Shown here: piece by piece, positions 1-40,956 of the stretch
Position numbering within the stretch: position 1 is the stretch's first letter
Layout: the number at the start of each line of letters is the position of its first letter
Origin: Dictyostelium discoideum
Lineage: Eukaryota
DNA length: 64,000 bases
Assembly (NCBI GenBank): GCA_000004695.1
Contig: CM000152.2
Location: forward strand, 1-64,000
Direction of reading: 5' to 3'
The notes under the pieces: model-generated
Seen by the model: only the letters and a program-made list of their open reading frames with translations
What the model was told of the DNA's origin: nothing
Database searches by the model: none
Program-made: the position numbers and the translations under genes

Positions 1-100
1 NNNNNNNNNNNNNNNNNNNNNNNNNNNNNNNNNNNNNNNNNNNNNNNNNNNNNNNNNNNNNNNNNNNNNNNNNNNNNNNNNNNNNNNNNNNNNNNNNNNN
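1..100. other. assembly gap (run of N)
   Basis: 100 consecutive n characters at the window start. Confidence 0.99.
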
Positions 101-26514: not shown

Positions 26515-27156
26515 TATAATAATAGTAATAATAATAATTACATGTATCTAAGTGAAGATGATATTGTTAAATTATTAGAATTTATAATAAATAAAAACAA
26601 TTGTTTTGGTAGTGAAAAAGAAAATGATTGTTTTTTGATATTTTCTAATGATTCCATAAATGATTTTGGATTTAAACAAAATAATGATATTGATTTTAGT
26701 AATTTAAATATTATTAGATTTTTTAAACGTTCTATTGAATGTTTTAAAAAATTAAATATAAAAATACCAAATCAACTTTTAAACCCAATAAAATATTATA
26801 TATTTTCAGGATTTAATGAAAATGGTAGTCAACGTACTTCTTTACTCGATATTACATTGGAATTCTTAATTGAATTATATGAAGCAGTTCATTATTTATC
26901 ACCATTGTTTTTGGAATCACCAGCAGATCAAACTTACAAAAGTTGTTACCAATCAACTAATATGGTTTTATCAAATGAGGAATTTCAATCTATAAAGAAT
27001 TCATTCACAAAAATTGAATTAAAATCATTATTAAAAGATTTAGATTATTCTGATAAAATTGAAATATTATTTAGAAATGTTTCAATGGTTTCAAATATTA
27101 ATCCAAATGATTATAATTTAAAATATTGTAAAAATCAAATTTATTATTTAAAATAA
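25791..27156 (+). pseudogene. N-terminal half of a paralog of the 32996..35686 gene (disrupted copy)
   Basis: Frame open from 25791 (after TAG) to 27156. It aligns with residues about 10-430 of the intact paralog (KIWKNIVIKNKILSFLEIKTS, YGNKELFRYKV, IAFKVFL..., SMVSNINPNDY). There is no in-frame ATG until 26113 (MLLYGNKE), so the homologous start codon is lost. The sequence that follows is an inverted duplicated fragment. Confidence 0.6.
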
Positions 27157-27478
27157 TTGTATTAAAATCTTGAATTTCTTCTTTTGTAAAGTTTTTGTTT
27201 GATTCTGACATGGCATTTGTCACTTTTTCGAGACCAAATTCTTCTTCACCTATTCTTTCCAATAAATGATGATCAGGATCATAAAGATCTTGATAATTTC
27301 GATGATCACGTTCACCTGGATTATTAAAATAATCGATATCATTCAATGCTTTTGATAATTGATTTGAATGGAATAAATAACTGAATAATGTTTTATTCAG
27401 TGGTTGAATACATCTACCAGATTTTAAATCATAATCTCTATTTTCAAAAATCCATGCTAAAATCTCTGGATTTGATAA
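27155..27478 (-). repeat. inverted segmental duplication of 28420..28738 (about 320 bp, about 100% identity) inserted between the two gene halves
   Basis: The reverse complement of 27155-27478 equals the internal coding segment ...CIQPLNKTLFSYLFHSNQLSKALNDIDYFNNPGERDHRNYQDLYDPDHHLLERIGEEEFGLEKVTNAMSESNKNFTKEEIQDFNTI of the downstream fragment. The track ORF 27098..27346(-) reads it. Confidence 0.85.
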
Positions 27479-27482
27479 AAGG

Positions 27483-29204
<1,722 letters not shown>

Positions 29205-32995: not shown

Positions 32996-35253
32996 ATGTC
33001 ATCATCAATAATTGATAAAAGAGAAACAAAAAAAATTAAAATTGATAATAAAGATTTAAAGTTTAGTTCAGATAATATTTTCTATGAAAAGATTTGGAAG
33101 AACATAGTAATAAAGAATAAAATATTATCATTTTTAGAAATAAAGACATCTAGATTATTGGCAAAATATAAAAGTAATAAAATTAAACTCGTTAATAATA
33201 ATTTAGAATTGGATCATTCGCTATCAAAGACATTATATGGAGAAAAGAAATATTTCAAATATGATGAAATGATTAGTGTTGAAAAGATGTTAAAATATGG
33301 CAACAAAGAATTATTTAGGTATAAAGTATCTAGAAATGAAAAGGAATCAATGGTTTTCTCTGAAAATGATTCATATCGTATCTTTCAAAAATTTAAAGAC
33401 CAATTTAAAGATTATCAATTCTTTCAAGATCTATTTAATAACTATTCAAATTATTTCAAACCGAATCAACTTTTCGATATAGTAATAATATGTGATAATA
33501 TAATTGCTTTCAAAATTATAATAAATAAATTAAATACCATCATTTCACCCGAATTATTAAAATATTCTATAAAATGTGGTGCAATTGATATAGTCAAATA
33601 TCTTTTAAATATAATACAATCAAATAATAATAATAATTTAAAAATTGAATCATTTAAATTAAATGAAATAGAAATTATTAAAATTTTAGATGAAACGATT
33701 AAACCTAAATTTAGAGAAAGATTAAATAGGTTTTATGATAGTGATGAAAGGTATAATTTTTCAAACGATGATACTTTAAATGATTTTGGATTTAAATCAA
33801 ATTCAAGGGACGAATTCAATGTATTATATGATGTTTATAAAAATAAAAGAGTTTTTCTCTGTTTATTGAATATAGGAGTTACAATACCAACTAAAACTAG
33901 CAAAACCATTGAATGTTTATATAGTTTACATTCATTTGAAATTGATGGTTGTTTTTCAATTCTTCAACTGACATTAGAGTTTCTATTGGAATTATGTGAA
34001 ACCATTTACTATTTATCAGCATTGGTAGTTAAAGGTAATGATGGTATTGAATGCTCCAATAAAATTCAACAATTATTACCATTTGAAAAGTTTCAAACAT
34101 CAATAAAGAATTCATTCAATCAACAAGAATTAAAATTAACATTAAAACAACTGTATAGTAAATCAGAAAAAGTACAAGTAGAAATAATTCAACTTTTAAT
34201 TAAATCACTTTCAATGGTTTCTTATATTGATCGTAAAGATTATGAATTTAATGATCTTGAAAATGATATTCTCATTGATAAAGATGAAAGAATTCTAATA
34301 GAACTAGTTAATAATAATAATAATTCACAAAATGATGATTGTCAACATTTATTTAAATCTTTGAAATCAACAAAACATTTTGATATTCTTTATTCAAATG
34401 ATTACTATAAATCAAAATTTCAAATTCAATTTTTATTAAATTCATTTTACGATCTAAGCATTGATAGTTATTTATATAATCATCATGATATCTATGAAAA
34501 ACATTTAATGCTAATTTTATATCATTTCAAAATAAAATATCCAAATGATTATTATAATCAAATTAGTAAATTAGATTTCTTAAAAAATAAAAAACTACTT
34601 TCAAATGATTTCATTTGTAAAAATTATCAAGATTTTAAAGAGAATATTTTAAAATGTAATCAAAATAATAATAATAATAATAATGGCGAAGGATATTGGT
34701 CAACTTATTTTAAAGAACTTGAATTTTTAAATAGTCCATACCATGAAATTACCTTATCAACTCATTTGAGTTTAAATCAATTTATTTCAATTTTAGAATT
34801 AACTCCAGCTCAACAACAGTATAGTTGTTTATCAAATCCAGAGATTTTAGCATGGATTTTTGAAAATAGAGATTATGATTTAAAATCTGGTAGATGTATT
34901 CAACCACTGAATAAAACATTATTCAGTTATTTATTCCATTCAAATCAATTATCAAAAGCATTGAATGATATCGATTATTTTAATAATCCAGGTGAACGTG
35001 ATCATCGAAATTATCAAGATCTTTATGATCCTGATCATCATTTATTTGAAAGAATAAGTGAAGATGATGAGAATTTTGCTTTGAGAGAACTTTTATATAA
35101 ATTAAAATTAAAAAAATTAGAAAATCAAGGTGTTGATAGATACAATACACTTTTCAAAATATCTTTATTGAATGAAAGTGCAGTAGATAAAATTGTTAAA
35201 TTTAATTATTTAGACGATTTAGAAATAGTTTATAATTTTATAAATAAAATCAC

Positions 35254-35302
<49 letters not shown>

Positions 35303-35686
35303 CAAATAAATAAATATTTATTAGGATTAAAAAAAACATTGATTTTTAGCATTGGAAATTATAATAGAGTTTCTTGTTTAAAATTATTATGGATTTTGGA
35401 TAAAGATAATCAATCTTTCTTTTCCAATGGTAATAAATTATTAAGATATATATACACTCAAAAATTTAATTCTTGTGAAGTTCTCTCTGAAGTTTCTGAC
35501 ATTTTAAAAAATGACTTGGATTTTTCTAAAAAAAAAACAAAAAAACAAAATAATCATGAAAATGGGTGTGAGGAAGAAAGTAGTGATATAGATGAAGAAG
35601 ATGAGGACGGTAGTAATATTGATGAAGATGGCAGCGATATAGATGAAGACGAGCATGTAAATGAATATGCTGAAAGTGGAAATTAA
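32996..35686 (+). CDS. intact 896-aa member of a Dictyostelium-specific paralog family (no known domain); reference copy for the split paralog at 25.8-29.2 kb
   Basis: Single uninterrupted ATG-initiated ORF. Its N-terminal half matches 25791-27156 and its C-terminal half matches 27483-29204. It ends in an acidic tail. Confidence 0.8.
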
Positions 35687-35994
35687 ATAAAATAAAATAA
35701 AGTAAAATAAAATAAATAAAAAACAATAATAAAAAAAAAAAAAAATAATAAAAACTAGAGTAATAATAAAATAATAATAATAAAAAAAAATCTAATACAA
35801 TAAATACTTTTTTTTACATTAAAAAAATAAATTTAATGTAAATCAATAAATCAAAAAAAAAATAGATTTCTAAAGATATTTTAAAAAAAATATTTTAAAA
35901 AAAAAACTAAATAAAAAAATATAAAAAAAATATAAAAAAGAAAATGTGATGGTTATTTTTATAAAAACTAATTAAAAAAAATAATTAATAAAAA

Positions 35995-36050
<56 letters not shown>

Positions 36051-36054
<4 letters not shown>

Positions 36055-37385
36055 TCAAGAAGGCACCAGCTAAAACAACTGAAATTGGAAAACCAACTAT
36101 TCGGGTGACCAAAAATAGTGAACCAAATATCGCAATTTTTTTACATCGTCATCATCATCAACATCGTCATCTGGTAGTGATGAATACTCAATGTATTCAT
36201 CATCATCATCATCACCACCATTATCTTCTGGTAATGAAGAATCCTCGATATATTCACCCCATACAACAGTGAAACCGAGTGGTATTTCAAAACTAGCCGC
36301 TCAACATTTAAAGAACCCAGCTCCAGCCACACCAGATTCAAAAGAAGCACCAAGGGTTTCAAGAACATTAAGATCCCAATGTATTAACATCATCCTCTTC
36401 ATCATCTTCATCATCATCGTCATCACCATTATTATCCTCTGGTAGTGAAGAACCCTCAATATATTCATACTATTCAAAAGTAAAACCCAGTGGTGTTTCA
36501 AAACCAGCCGCTCCATATTTAAAGAAACCACAAGAAAATTGGCCAGCTCCAGCAGCGCCAGGTTCAAAGGAAGCACCAAGATTACTAGATCTCCCAATGT
36601 ATTAACATCATCGTCATCATTGTCATCACCATCATCATTATCATCCTCTTTATCCTCTGGATATGAAGAATCCTCAATATATCAGCCTCTAGATCAGCAA
36701 ACCCCAGTGTTGCTTTAAAACCAGCTCCAAATAAAAAGAAGTCAGCACCAGCCCCTCCACAAACAAGGAAATCACCAAGGGTTTCACGATCAAATTCATC
36801 ATTATCATCATCACCATTATCACCATCATCATCACCATCATTACTGTCATTACAGTCATCACCATCATCCCTATCATTACCGTCATCACCAACACCATCA
36901 TCACCATCATCACCATCATCATCACCATCATCACCATCATCACCATCATCATCACCATCATCACCATCATCACTATCATCACCATCATTATCATCTCTAT
37001 CCTCCCCAAGAGCAAAGAGAGCAGCACCAACCCCTCTAAATTCAAAGGAAGCACCAAGAGTTTCAAAACCAAATTCAAATTCTTCCCCAAGAAAGAAAAA
37101 AAGAAAAATTTAGTATTAAGAGAAATTAAGAAGCACCAAAAATCGGATAAGCTTCTTTTACCTCTACTTTCTTTTTCTCGATTGGCCAGAGAAATTTTGG
37201 ATGGTTTCGGCACTAATTTAAGAATCACTCCTGGTTGTCTTATAGCTCTTCAATATGCTTTTGAATCCCACATGACTTTAATATTGGAGAATTGTGGTAT
37301 TATGGCTTTTTATGGAAAAAGAAAAACCATTAATAGAAGTGATATGAGACTTCATTCGAGAATTTGTCCACTCTTTAAAAATTAA
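36051..37385 (+). CDS. histone H3 variant with a long repetitive Ser/Pro-rich N-terminal extension (candidate CenH3-like), disrupted by frameshifts and stops in this sequence
   Basis: C-terminal histone fold at 37100-37385 (LVLREIKKHQKSDKLLLPLLSFSRLAREILDGFGTNLRITPGCLIALQYAFESHMTLILENCGIMAFYGKRKTINRSDMRLHSRICP) aligns with H3 alphaN-alpha3. This frame is open from 36667 with no internal ATG. The ATG at 36051 (MVKKAPAKTTEIGKPT...) is in the same frame, but stops and shifts intervene among three tandem units of about 235 bp (KEAPRVS..., poly-Ser). Confidence 0.55.
36150..37100 (+). repeat. three imperfect tandem units of about 235 bp encoding a Ser-rich, Pro-rich histone-tail repeat
   Basis: Repeated blocks: (TCA)n ... 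SSG(N/S/Y)EE(S/P)SIY ... KEAPR(V/L)S ... with the conserved junction sequence CCCAATGTATTAACATCATC. They lie inside the H3-variant gene. Confidence 0.7.
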
Positions 37386-37702
37386 AATACCCTCAAATAA
37401 TATATAAAAAAAAACATAATAAAAATTTAATTTAAAAAATAAAGTTATTTATATTTATAAAAAATTCCACAACTGTTCCTTTAATTTTTTTTTTTTTTAT
37501 TTTACTGAATTATTAAATAAACAATTAAATAAAAAAAAATAAATAATAAATAATATTAAATAAAAAAAAACTAAAAAAAAACAATAAATTATAGATATAT
37601 TAAAAAAAAAAAAGATTTTAGATAGAAATTAAAAGAAAGTAAGAATTGATAAATATATATTAGAAGCAAAGAGATAATTTTATTTCCTTTTTTTTTTTTT
37701 AT

Positions 37703-39178
<1,476 letters not shown>

Positions 39179-39335: not shown

Positions 39336-39431
39336 ATGATAATTGTAAAACCTTATTGGGTCGATCATCATGGTAAATAGAATTTAAAAAATAAAAAATA
39401 AACAAAAACATAAAATTAGAAAATGTTTTAA

Positions 39432-39471
<40 letters not shown>

Positions 39472-40956
39472 ATGATACAGGAACACCAATATTTTCAATT
39501 GATGTGCACCCTGATGGTAAAAGATTAGCTACATGTGGAGGAGATTCAAATATAAAAATATGGAATATTGAACCAATATCCGATGAGATTATGGAAGATG
39601 ATGCTGATGATACAAGCAACAAAAGAACAACAACACCAACACCAAAATTATTATATTCAATTAATTATGCACATTCAAAATCAATTAACAGTATCAAATG
39701 GTCAAAAGATGGTAGATATTTAGCATCAGTTTCAGATGATAGAGAATGTATAGTTTGGACACTTTCACCATTTCAATCAGCAAATACACCAGAGATTTGG
39801 ACGAGTATAGTTTGCCTTAAAGGTCATAGTGCTGATATCACCGATGTTATTTGGTCAGCAGATAATCAATTTTTAGCTACTTGTAGTTTAGATAAAACAA
39901 TTTTAATTTGGGAAACTACTAAATTTGGTATCTATATATTTTATACTATTTATTTATTTATTTTTATTTATAATTCTTGTTATTCTAACTTTTTTTTTAT
40001 TTATTTTAGGAATTATAAAAAAGTTAGAAAAACAAGAAAAGTTTATAAATGGAATTACATGGGATCCAATGGGTAAATACTTGGTTTCACAATCAGATGG
40101 TTTGATATGTATTTGGAATACTATCAATTGGAATTGTGAAAAAGTAATTAAAGATGTTGTTGGTGGTTTAGATTTAAAATCTTTCTTTTTAAGATCAAGT
40201 TGGACACCAGATTCTAAATATTTTATATCAACTCAAGGTTTTAATAAAAATAATCATTCAGCTATATTAATAGGTAGAGATAATTTTATAAATAATCATT
40301 ATGGTAATCATAATGACAATGGTAATGATGATGGTAATGATGATGGTAATGATGATGGTAATGATGGTAATGATGATGGTAATGATGACACCTTTGAATT
40401 GGTAGGCCATACGGATGTAGTTTCAGTTTCAAAATGTTCTCCAATTATATTTAAAGATAATTCAAATAATTATTTTTCATTAATTTTATTAGGAAGTGTT
40501 GATTCAACATTCTCATTATGGTTATCACCACCTACTACTACTACTACTACTACTACCGATACCAATACCAATAATAGTATTAAGAGATCGCCACCTCAAC
40601 TTATAATGGTTTGTAAAGAAGTTTTTAAAAATACAATACAAGATGTTTCATGGTGTCCTGATGGTTTATCATTTTTTGTTTGTTCAATTGATGGAACTAT
40701 TGCCTATATATCATTGAAACTACATGAAATTAGTGATGGATCACTTCAACCTATCAGTCATAGAGAAAAACAACAATTCTTTAAAAAATCTTATAATTTT
40801 AATTTACCAAATGAAATAGAACTATTTATTCATAAAAGAAATCAAATACCAACTAAACCAATCACTAGAACTACCCAAGAAGTACTATCTACTCAAAAAC
40901 AGTCAACAACTTTAACTGGAAAGAAAAGAATAACACCAGTTACAACTACATATTAA
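39336..40956 (+). CDS. HIRA-like WD40 histone chaperone (HIRA/CAF-1 p60 family), three exons, WD-repeat portion only
   Basis: Exon 1 is 39336..39372 (MIIVKPYWVDHH + g, compare human HIRA MKLLKPTWVNHNG). Intron GTAAAT..ACAG. Exon 2 is 39481..39927 (GTPIFSIDVHPDGKRLATCGGDSNIKIWN..., WSKDGRYLASVSDD, LKGHSADITDVIWS). Intron 39928..40009. Exon 3 is 40010..40956 (ITWDPMGKYLVSQSDGLICIWN..., KKRITPV). It stops at about 476 aa and lacks the C-terminal Hira domain. Confidence 0.8.

What the first reader, a model, noticed from the sequence alone, without database searches (positions are those of the whole stretch)
36051..37385. Histone H3 variant with a tandemly repeated Ser/Pro-rich N-terminal tail (CenH3 candidate) whose coding frame is broken three times
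An unmistakable H3 histone fold sits at the 3' end. Its L1 loop is of canonical length (GTNLRITP). It is preceded by about 1 kb of tail-like sequence built from three copies of about 235 bp. The initiator ATG (36051), repeat unit 2 and the fold are all in frame 0, yet unit 1 is readable only in frame 2. A stop (PMY*) and a TGA also separate units 2 and 3. One of the shifts coincides with a T7 homopolymer (about 36140), where one extra T would join MVKKAP... to the Ser-rich frame. The conserved junction CCCAATGTATTAACATCATC recurs at each unit boundary. There are three possible explanations. It could be a CenH3-type variant mis-assembled in a repeat, a decaying variant-histone pseudogene, or an unusual expression mechanism. 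A HIRA-like H3 chaperone gene lies 2 kb downstream on the same strand.
Basis: partly seen in the sequence, partly recalled or inferred. Interest (0 to 1): 0.7.

Follow-up and report, generated by a model that had tools for sequence, protein, structure and literature searches.

The report
Dead long-tailed histone H3 variant gene
This is the broken remnant, in the laboratory lineage of the social amoeba Dictyostelium discoideum, of a previously undescribed histone H3 variant with a very long serine/proline-rich tail; the gene is still an intact 567-codon reading frame in one wild isolate and has been inactivated separately in four other lineages.

Summary
Window 37107-37382 encodes a real H3-type histone fold (Pfam Histone E=9e-18; gapless alignment to H3 residues 46-131). 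About 1 kb of Ser/Pro-rich repeats precedes it, and an ATG sits at 36051. The frame is broken five times, not three.

The window is D. discoideum of AX4 type. An independent de novo assembly (GCA_054883475.1) is 100% identical across the locus, so the breaks are not assembly errors.

At the syntenic site of another D. discoideum assembly (GCA_054859355.1) the gene is one uninterrupted 567-aa ORF. Against that allele the window carries deletions of 31, 2, 10, 1 and 1 nt.

Three further lineages are broken by other, unshared lesions: two nonsense codons plus two frameshifts; loss of the tail; loss of the fold.

The locus is neither h3v1 (the validated CenH3) nor h3v2. No AT-rich, intron-like stretch exists that could bridge the frames.

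Verdict: a unitary pseudogene of a fast-evolving, undescribed long-tailed H3 variant. The "CenH3 candidate" label is unsupported, and "mis-assembly" and "unusual expression" are rejected. Interest is modest. It lies in the functional-versus-dead allele polymorphism, not in any new mechanism.

The parts
35974..36050 (+). A-run leader directly upstream of the start codon. Its length differs between assemblies: the window has 29 more A than GCA_054883475.1.
   Evidence: Tandem Repeats Finder reports the run (35974-36051). It is the only difference between the two assemblies within 35601-37800.
36051..36124 (+). Conserved start codon and first ~24 codons (MVKKAPAKTTEIGKPTIRVTKNSE), frame 0. Read on in this frame, the ORF stops at 36270-36272 after 73 codons.
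   Evidence: It aligns to MVKKSPAKKTEIGKPTIQVTKSGG of the intact allele.
36124..36125 (+). Lesion 1: a 31-nt deletion relative to the intact allele (AAATAATAATATTCCAACTAGAACTACACCA, encoding NNNIPTRTTP). Frame shifts 0->2.
   Evidence: The segment is present in L003, L007 and, as 'NKIPTRR', in L005, so the deletion is derived.
36125..36373 (+). Repeat unit 1 of the tail, readable only in frame 2 (KYRNFFTSSSSSTSSS...KEAPRVSRTLR).
36373..36374 (+). Lesion 2: a 2-nt (TC) deletion in AGATCTCCCAATG. Frame shifts 2->0.
   Evidence: The undeleted form AGATCTCCCAATG survives at the next unit boundary of the window itself (36588-36600).
36374..36585 (+). Repeat unit 2, frame 0 (PNVLTSSSS...PGSKEAPR). 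Read on, it stops at PMY* (36603-36605).
36585..36586 (+). Lesion 3: net 10-nt deletion. Frame shifts 0->2.
36586..36679 (+). First part of repeat unit 3, frame 2 (RSPNVLTSSSSLSSPSSLSSSLSSGYEESSI).
36680..36682 (+). Lesion 4: 1-nt deletion (intact ATA AAT TCA; window ATA TA- TCA). Frame shifts 2->1.
   Evidence: register checked by hand.
36682..37103 (+). Rest of unit 3, the (SSP)n microsatellite (36796-36993), the degenerate unit 4 and the basic PRKKKRK patch, all in frame 1. Read on, it stops at TAG 37111-37113.
37104..37108 (+). Lesion 5: an A5 run where the L003 and L007 alleles have A6. Frame shifts 1->0. This is the only lesion inside a homopolymer.
   Evidence: Read from the alignments. 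MAFFT merges it with an adjacent in-frame 6-nt insertion at about 37081-37086.
37107..37385 (+). H3-type histone fold (alphaN end, alpha1, L1, alpha2, L2, alpha3) in frame 0, with stop TAA at 37383-37385. It contains no internal stop or frameshift. No in-frame ATG/GTG/TTG lies between the last upstream frame-0 stop (about 36732) and 37182.
   Evidence: It is 92% identical in protein to the fold of the intact allele.

Best explanation
Window 36051-37385 is a unitary pseudogene: it sits in the ancestral position and is not a retro-copy. It belongs to the NC4-derived laboratory lineage of Dictyostelium discoideum.

The parent gene is an intronless, lineage-restricted histone H3 variant that the Dictyostelium histone papers read here do not list. 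Its intact form is 567 aa in assembly GCA_054859355.1. It consists of:
- a short conserved N-terminus (MVKK...);
- a ~475-aa tail that is low-complexity and net basic (33% Ser, 17% Pro, 31 S/T-P sites), built from ~70-aa tandem units plus an (SSP)n array;
- a PRKKKRK patch;
- a C-terminal H3 fold with a canonical-length L1.

Shown: in the window lineage five deletions (31, 2, 10, 1 and 1 nt) move the reading frame 0->2->0->2->1->0.

Inferred: a ribosome starting at the conserved ATG would stop after 73 codons, and the fold has no start codon of its own, so no histone-fold protein can be made. The deletions sum to 45 nt. That is why the ATG and the fold happen to share a frame.

Inferred: where intact, the protein probably pairs with H4 and enters nucleosomes as an H3 replacement carrying a phosphorylatable tail. 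The gene is dispensable or only conditionally useful, and its repetitive tail is prone to indels. It has therefore been lost independently several times.
For: Species and independent confirmation
- The window's PARG and DDB_G0295839 proteins are identical to those of D. discoideum AX4.
- The window is not the same assembly as GCA_054883475.1. It has 100 N, an inverted 0.9-kb segment and different homopolymer lengths. It differs by only 1 mismatch in 17.3 kb.
- Over 36051-37385 the two assemblies are 100% identical.
- The newer assemblies are de novo Nanopore plus Illumina (PMC12745789).

Intact allele
- L003 17481-19184(-) is a single 567-aa ORF. It lies between the same neighbours: the orthologue of the 896-aa gene upstream and, downstream, the N-rich orphan gene (491 aa in the window) followed by the WD40 gene.
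- Pfam finds Histone at residues 444-561.

Lesions
- They are listed base by base.
- The 31-nt segment is present in three other lineages.

Independent losses elsewhere
- L007 has GAA->TAA, TCA->TGA, -68 nt and -1 nt. None is shared with the window, although L007 differs from L003 by only 0.6% in the WD40 gene.
- L004 has lost the tail and part of alpha1.
- L005 keeps a decayed tail and has no fold.

No intron rescue
- The lowest 60-nt GC inside the locus is 21.7%. A real intron of the neighbouring WD40 gene reaches 6.7%.

Evolutionary rates, window versus L003
- Tail omega is 0.72-0.82 with dS about 0.12. The PARG gene has dS of about 0.10.
Against: - The fold in the window carries no lesion. 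It has only 4 lineage-specific substitutions in 279 nt (1 synonymous and 3 conservative replacements). Its omega against L003 is 0.30. This is fewer changes than about half of dS (roughly 5%) would predict. Either the loss of constraint is recent, or the fold is still constrained in some way I cannot see. The counts are too small to decide.
- No expression data could be examined.
- The automated annotation of GCA_054883475.1 places a spliced 250-aa model on window 36191-37113, so a pipeline did find formally possible GT..AG bridges.
- I could not read the AX4 reference annotation or dictyBase to see whether the locus is already flagged.
Confidence: 0.85

Rival explanations
1. The gene is still functional in the lab strain. 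Introns or alternative splicing bridge the frame changes, for example a GT donor in unit 1 joined to the TTTAG acceptor at 37109-37113, giving a short-tailed H3-like protein.
For: - An automated pipeline built a spliced 250-aa model at 36191-37113.
- The fold is free of lesions and shows omega 0.30.
- G|GTAATG at 36231 and TTTAG| at 37113 would formally join frame 2 to the fold frame (read).
Against: - The intact allele is collinear and intronless.
- No AT-rich, intron-like stretch exists. The minimum 60-nt GC is 21.7%, against 6.7% in a genuine neighbouring intron.
- An 880-nt, 38%-GC intron would be very atypical for Dictyostelium (own knowledge).
- The 250-aa model omits the fold altogether.
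- The donor and acceptor are equally present in the intact allele, where they are not needed.
Confidence: 0.05
2. The frame breaks are sequencing or assembly errors in a repetitive, homopolymer-rich region, and the real gene is intact in this strain.
For: - One of the five lesions lies in a homopolymer (A5 versus A6 at 37104-37108).
- The region is repetitive.
- The upstream A run differs in length between assemblies.
Against: - Two different assemblies agree at every base of 36051-37385.
- Four lesions are deletions of 31, 2, 10 and 1 nt outside homopolymers.
- The newer assembly was Illumina-polished (PMC12745789).
Confidence: 0.03
3. Programmed ribosomal frameshifting or another recoding mechanism reads through the five shifts.
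For: The ATG and the fold share a frame, and the tail is open in some frame at every point.
Against: - It would need five shifts of mixed direction at unrelated sequences.
- Each shift coincides with a deletion relative to an intact allele that needs no recoding.
- A sum of deletions equal to 0 mod 3 has a 1-in-3 chance expectation.
Confidence: 0.01
4. The locus is dead everywhere. Even the 567-aa ORF of GCA_054859355.1 is a not-yet-hit neutral relic, so there is no functional H3 variant in any living lineage.
For: - Four of five lineages are broken independently.
- Tail omega is 0.7-0.8.
- No orthologue above 48% identity appears in the 1.84-billion-protein representative library.
Against: - The sister lineage L007 picked up 2 nonsense and 2 frameshift lesions while diverging only 0.6% in the flanking gene.
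- The window lineage picked up 5. Remaining open over 567 codons at such a lesion rate is improbable without selection: roughly e^-4 on a crude Poisson reading (inference).
- Fold omega is 0.30.
Confidence: 0.3

Closest known systems
D. discoideum H3v1 / DdCenH3 (DDB_G0291185; Dubin et al. 2010, PMC2995078)
   Same: Both place an H3-like histone fold at the C-terminus of a very long, unique N-terminal extension (619 aa for H3v1, 567 aa for the intact allele here). In both, loop 1 is not extended relative to H3 (for H3v1; here).
   Different: - It is a different locus. The h3v1 primers, and the termini they encode (MANKPKPS... / ...HFLF), are absent from the window.
- H3v1 is experimentally centromeric and is expressed in the lab strains where this gene is broken.
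- No 619-aa protein appears among the 150 best fold matches of the exhaustive search, all of which look like ordinary H3. There is therefore no sign of close paralogy. I could not obtain the H3v1 sequence for a direct alignment.
Canonical H3/H3.3 (D. discoideum H3a-c; PDB H3.2/H3.3 chains)
   Same: The fold aligns gaplessly with H3 residues 46-131 at about 40% identity. R49, R69, R72, R83, K115, R116, T118 and D123 are retained (residue roles from general knowledge).
   Different: - The tail is 475 aa of Ser/Pro-rich repeats instead of the conserved 44-residue H3 tail.
- Several fold residues are replaced: Q68->S, F84->V/I, T107->C, R63->P, H113->Y, C110->M.
- It evolves quickly. It is broken in the window.
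D. discoideum H3v2 (DDB_G0277979)
   Same: It is another divergent H3-like sequence of the same genome.
   Different: H3v2 is 96 aa and has an intron. Its primers do not match the window, and its primer-encoded C-terminus (...LPRY, my translation of the reverse primer) differs from ...PLFKN.
Recurrently duplicated and lost histone-variant paralogues, e.g. Drosophila Cid/CenH3 paralogues and short-lived mammalian H3/H2A variant pseudogenes (recalled from the literature, not checked here)
   Same: The pattern is the same: a fast-evolving tail, a conserved fold, a lineage-restricted distribution and repeated independent pseudogenisation.
   Different: No function, expression pattern or localisation is known for this one. 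The turnover here is seen among very close lineages, with about 2-4% nucleotide divergence in PARG and SHMT.

Membership tests
Histone H3 family (Pfam PF00125, H3-type fold) | Sequence match to the core-histone profile above the curated threshold | tested here: met
   Window fold: E=9.3e-18, 65.1 bits against a cut-off of 26.4. Intact allele: 66.9 bits at residues 444-561.
Histone H3 family (Pfam PF00125, H3-type fold) | Collinear alphaN-alpha1-L1-alpha2-L2-alpha3 alignment to H3 rather than H4, H2A or H2B | tested here: met
   All 60 listed PDB matches are H3 chains. The best has E=1.1e-13, with a gapless alignment of query 7-92 to H3 46-131. The best hits in the exhaustive library are also H3.
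Histone H3 family (Pfam PF00125, H3-type fold) | A continuous ORF from a start codon through the fold, i.e. a gene rather than a relic | tested here: not met
   In the window there are five frame changes, and the first ORF ends after 73 codons. No start codon lies in the fold's frame upstream of 37182. The feature is met in L003.
Histone H3 family (Pfam PF00125, H3-type fold) | Predicted three-dimensional histone fold | tested here: inconclusive
   Single-sequence AlphaFold2 gave mean pLDDT 43. It is helical but unreliable.
CenH3 / CENP-A | Loop 1 longer than in H3 | tested here: not met
   The alignment to H3 across L1 is gapless. DdCenH3 itself lacks the extension (PMC2995078), so this feature is weak in this organism.
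CenH3 / CENP-A | Loss of the canonical H3 signature residues Q68, F84 and T107 (criterion recalled from the CenH3 literature) | tested here: met
   Q68->S, F84->V/I and T107->C, read from the alignment. This is also expected for any strongly diverged H3. PMC2939574 notes that sequence position cannot assign CenH3 function.
CenH3 / CENP-A | Identity or orthology with the organism's validated CenH3 gene (h3v1, DDB_G0291185) | tested here: not met
   The h3v1 primers are absent from the window, and the protein termini differ.
CenH3 / CENP-A | Centromere localisation and requirement for chromosome segregation | not testable with these tools
   Indirectly against: the gene is broken in both the AX4-type window and the second lab-lineage assembly. 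CenH3/H3v1 is still described as the only centromere-specific histone (PMC13510849).
Unitary pseudogene | Disabling lesions relative to an intact orthologue at the same syntenic position | tested here: met
   There are five frame-shifting deletions against L003, with the same flanking genes.
Unitary pseudogene | Lesions are real, i.e. reproduced in an independent assembly | tested here: met
   100% identity over 36051-37385 with GCA_054883475.1.
Unitary pseudogene | Neutral evolution after inactivation (omega near 1, accelerated change) | tested here: inconclusive
   Tail omega is 0.72-0.82. Fold omega is 0.30, with only 4 window-specific changes.
Unitary pseudogene | No functional transcript or protein | not testable with these tools
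   No expression data were accessible.
HIRA / CAF-1 p60 (neighbouring gene, window ~39339-40956 +) | CAF1B/HIR1-type WD40 beta-propeller | tested here: inconclusive
   Pfam PF24105 gives 78.1 bits on exon-ORF 1 and 30.9 bits on exon-ORF 2; the cut-off for the whole protein is 80.5. PDB matches: Hir1 E=5e-22 and CAF-1 subunit B E=8e-18, but also CIAO1 E=4e-24. At 476 aa it is too short for a full HIRA. The Hira C-terminal domain was not looked for.

The most novel reading that the evidence does not exclude
The intact 567-aa allele found in one wild D. discoideum isolate may encode a working sixth H3-type histone: a second long-tailed variant alongside CenH3/H3v1. Its role might be CenH3-like, or specific to the sexual cycle or the spore. 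It would segregate within the D. discoideum species complex as functional versus dead alleles, with at least four independent inactivations. That would be very rapid histone-variant turnover in a model organism whose laboratory strains happen to carry the dead copy.
Probability: 0.35. Interest if true: 0.55.

Novelty: new member of a known kind. Interest (0 to 1): 0.32.

Why it matters
Practical value:
- It corrects an automated gene model. The 250-aa spliced model on this locus is almost certainly spurious.
- It adds one entry to the Dictyostelium histone inventory, which the papers read here give as H3a-c plus H3v1 and H3v2.

Biological value:
- Laboratory D. discoideum lacks a histone variant that at least one wild isolate still encodes.
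- The locus is a clean natural series of independent losses of an H3 variant among very close lineages.
- If the intact allele is functional, it offers a tractable case for asking what a ~475-aa Ser/Pro-rich H3 tail does, and why it is repeatedly discarded.

No new molecular mechanism is involved.

Tried and rejected
Searches that led nowhere:
- Word-indexed protein searches with the fold and with the 567-aa protein returned nothing. The second was swamped by Ser-run words (8000 candidates).
- Exact look-ups of chance ORFs across the lesions, meant to find further independent assemblies or transcript contigs, found nothing.
- No supplementary text is held for Dubin 2010. I therefore could not get the H3v1 sequence, and a direct alignment with CenH3 was not done.
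- A search for a Dictyostelium 'H3v3' in the literature found none. The only hit is PMC2939574, where 'Dictyostelium' occurs once in a species list; the H3v3 passages themselves were not read.
- The exhaustive representative library does not appear to contain the 567-aa protein. Its silence about orthologues in other dictyostelids is therefore weak evidence.

Analyses that gave nothing usable:
- Single-sequence AlphaFold2 of the fold was too unreliable to use (pLDDT 43), so no fold search was run.

Ideas rejected:
- The T7-homopolymer explanation: T7 is identical in the intact allele.
- Intron rescue: no AT-rich segment exists.
- Identity with h3v1 or h3v2: primers are absent.
- Reading the CENP-T_C Pfam hit as meaningful: 23.4 bits is below the 28.1 cut-off, and the hit lies under the Histone hit.
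Full report
**What is in the sequence**

- Window 36051 carries an ATG directly after a 78-nt A run.
- Three-frame translation shows that no frame is open from this ATG to the histone fold.
- The sensible, Ser/Pro-rich reading moves through the frames in this order:
  - frame 0: MVKKAPAKTTEIGKPTIRVTKNSE;
  - frame 2: unit 1, ...SSSSSTSSSGSDEYS...KEAPRVSRTLR;
  - frame 0: unit 2, PNVLTSSSS...GSKEAPR;
  - frame 2: start of unit 3, RSPNVLTSSSS...GYEESSI;
  - frame 1: SASRSANPSVALKPAPNKKK..., an (SSP)n array, then ...KEAPRVSKPNSNSSPRKKKRK;
  - frame 0: NLVLREIKKHQKSDKLLLPLLSFSRLAREILDGFGTNLRITPGCLIALQYAFESHMTLILENCGIMAFYGKRKTINRSDMRLHSRICPLFKN*.
- That makes five frame changes.
- The repeat finders give units spaced 211-226 bp apart, plus a trinucleotide-based array at 36796-36993.

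**The fold is a real H3 fold**

- Pfam Histone matches at E=9.3e-18.
- All 60 listed PDB sequence matches are H3 chains. The alignment to H3 residues 46-131 is gapless, so loop 1 has canonical length.
- An exhaustive HMMER scan of 1.84 billion representative proteins found nothing closer than about 48% identity. The hits I inspected are ordinary H3 or H3 fusions.
- Single-sequence AlphaFold2 was uninformative (pLDDT 43).

**Where the window comes from, and whether the breaks are real**

- The PARG and DDB_G0295839 proteins encoded in the window are identical to those of D. discoideum AX4.
- The upstream 896-aa ORF led to assembly GCA_054883475.1. That is a different assembly from the window.
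  - The window has 100 N at its start.
  - A 0.9-kb segment is inverted between the two.
  - Several homopolymer lengths differ.
  - There is only 1 mismatch in 17.3 kb.
- Within 35601-37800 the sole difference is 29 extra A in the upstream A run. Positions 36051-37385 are identical base for base.
- The newer assemblies are de novo Nanopore plus Illumina (Holland et al. 2025, PMC12745789). Going by its near-identity to the window, this one is probably the AX2-214 lab strain (inference).
- Mis-assembly is therefore rejected.

**The decisive comparison**

- I fetched the same neighbourhood from other assemblies using proteins of the PARG, WD40 and FKBP neighbours.
- In GCA_054859355.1 (locus L003/L006, labelled D. 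discoideum), the position between the orthologue of the 896-aa gene and the N-rich orphan gene holds a single uninterrupted ORF of 567 aa.
- That ORF has the same N-terminus, the same repeat units and a 92%-identical fold. Pfam finds only Histone, at residues 444-561.
- Aligning the window to this allele accounts for every frame change as a deletion in the window:
  - 31 nt after 36124;
  - 2 nt (TC) after 36373;
  - a net 10 nt after 36585;
  - 1 nt at 36680-82;
  - 1 nt in an A6->A5 run at 37104-37108.
- MAFFT merges the last deletion with a neighbouring in-frame 6-nt insertion. I resolved it by eye.
- The five deletions sum to 45 nt. This is why the ATG and the fold share a frame.
- There are also nine or so in-frame indels, including one whole repeat unit.
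- The deleted 31-nt segment (NNNIPTRTTP) is present in three other lineages, so its absence here is derived.

**Other lineages**

- Flanking genes (PARG, SHMT, WD40, FKBP) give the grouping ((L003, L007), window), with L004 and L005 further out.
- L007 (GCA_054859385.1) differs from L003 by only 0.6% in the WD40 gene, yet its copy is broken. It carries GAA->TAA at codon 76, TCA->TGA at codon 134, a 68-nt deletion and a 1-nt deletion. None of these is shared with the window.
- L004 (D. cf. discoideum) has lost the whole tail. It keeps a fold remnant with a 15-nt deletion in alpha1 and no alphaN.
- L005 (D. cf. discoideum) keeps a decayed tail with stops and no ATG, and has no fold at all.
- Because L004 keeps the fold and L005 keeps the tail, their common ancestor had both.
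- The gene has thus been disabled independently at least four times and survives intact in one sampled lineage.
- From contig counts in Table 1 of PMC12745789, I guess L003 = OT3A, L007 = CR116C, L004 = M4B and L005 = S6B. This mapping is inference only.

**Rates**

- Synonymous divergence between the window and L003 is about 0.10 in PARG and in the 280-aa neighbour, with omega 0.07-0.10.
- In the variant, the tail has omega 0.72-0.82. The fold has omega 0.30, from 6 synonymous and 7 replacement differences.
- Polarised with L004, the window lineage has 1 synonymous and 3 conservative replacement changes in the fold. The L003 lineage has 3 synonymous and 4-5 replacements.
- So the fold shows no accelerated decay in the window lineage. 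Either inactivation is recent and the repetitive tail simply collects indels fast (L007 shows that it can), or the numbers are too small to tell. I leave this as a caveat.

**Why not splicing or recoding**

- The intact allele is collinear and intronless.
- Inside 36051-37385 the lowest 60-nt GC content is 21.7%. A genuine intron in the neighbouring WD40 gene reaches 6.7%, and the flanks are 6-10% GC.
- The annotation of GCA_054883475.1 places a spliced 250-aa model on window 36191-37113. That model starts at an internal ATG, ends at the frame-1 TAG and leaves out the fold. I regard it as an artefact of forcing a gene onto a pseudogene.
- Five shifts at unrelated sequences, each matching a deletion, leave no room for programmed frameshifting.

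**Comparison with what is known**

- The literature lists three H3.3-like genes (H3a-c) and two divergent ones. These are H3v1 (DDB_G0291185, 619 aa, the validated CenH3) and H3v2 (DDB_G0277979, 96 aa) (PMC2995078; PMC3424546).
- A 2026 review still calls CenH3 the only centromere-specific histone (PMC13510849).
- The cloning primers for both h3v1 and h3v2 are absent from the window. This is a sixth H3-like locus.
- It resembles H3v1 in architecture: a very long unique tail, a C-terminal fold and an unextended L1. It has also lost Q68, F84 and T107, as CenH3s do (criterion from memory).
- Any strongly diverged H3 would show the same residue losses, and sequence alone cannot assign CenH3 function (PMC2939574).
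- The gene is dead in lab strains that segregate chromosomes normally. It is therefore not the CenH3 of this organism. At most it is a dispensable paralogue-like variant.
- I could not obtain the H3v1 sequence, so I could not test paralogy directly.

**Neighbour**

- The same-strand gene about 2 kb downstream is a 476-aa WD40 protein. It matches the CAF1B/HIR1 beta-propeller family (78 + 31 bits over its two exon ORFs).
- In the PDB it matches yeast Hir1 (5e-22) and CAF-1 p60 (8e-18), but also CIAO1 (4e-24).
- 'HIRA-like' is possible but unproven. The adjacency is conserved in all five lineages whether or not the histone gene is alive, so it says little.

**Verdict**

- The locus is a unitary pseudogene of an undescribed, fast-evolving, long-tailed H3 variant (confidence 0.85).
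- It is a new member of a known kind, with no new mechanism.
- The residual interest lies in the live-versus-dead allele polymorphism and the repeated independent losses.

Noticed in passing
window 1-100: The first 100 bases of the window are N, an assembly gap. This shows that the window comes from an older, gapped assembly than GCA_054883475.1.
   Followed up: partly
window 27152-28730 (L001 4157-5735): A ~0.9-kb core (27480-28402), flanked by ~330-bp inverted repeats (27152-27479 and 28403-28730), lies in opposite orientation in the window and in GCA_054883475.1. It is either a real flip between lab strains or an assembly error in one of them. It overlaps the ORF 27564-29204.
   Followed up: no
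window 35997-36025: The A run upstream of the ATG is 29 nt longer in the window than in the second lab-lineage assembly. This is the only difference within 2.2 kb.
   Followed up: yes
window 39339-40956 (+): This is a 476-aa WD40 gene of the CAF1B/HIR1 beta-propeller type, a possible H3-H4 chaperone subunit although CIAO1 scores as well. It lies ~2 kb downstream of the histone relic, and the adjacency is conserved in all five lineages.
   Followed up: partly
window 36191-37113 (= GCA_054883475.1 gene model, L001 13167-14089): The public annotation of the second assembly carries a spliced 250-aa 'gene' on the pseudogene. It excludes the histone fold and is probably spurious.
   Followed up: partly
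L004 17700-17830 (minus-strand view): In the D. cf. discoideum lineage that lost the tail, a long (GTTGAT)n microsatellite sits where the tail should be. It is the reverse complement of the ATCAAC/ATCATC motif of the Ser-rich tail, which may be the trace of an inversion.
   Followed up: no
L003 17481-19184 versus L007 14554-15945: The histone-variant locus differs by 4.1% between two isolates whose flanking WD40 gene differs by only 0.6%. The repetitive tail seems to mutate, or undergo conversion between units, much faster than its surroundings.
   Followed up: partly
window 32996-35686 (+) and 37703-39178 (-): Both immediate neighbours are orphan genes rich in Asn and Ser runs, with no Pfam match. 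Their lengths vary widely between lineages: 894-1008 aa for the upstream gene and 347-497 aa for the downstream one. In L004 the upstream gene appears split into two ORFs.
   Followed up: no
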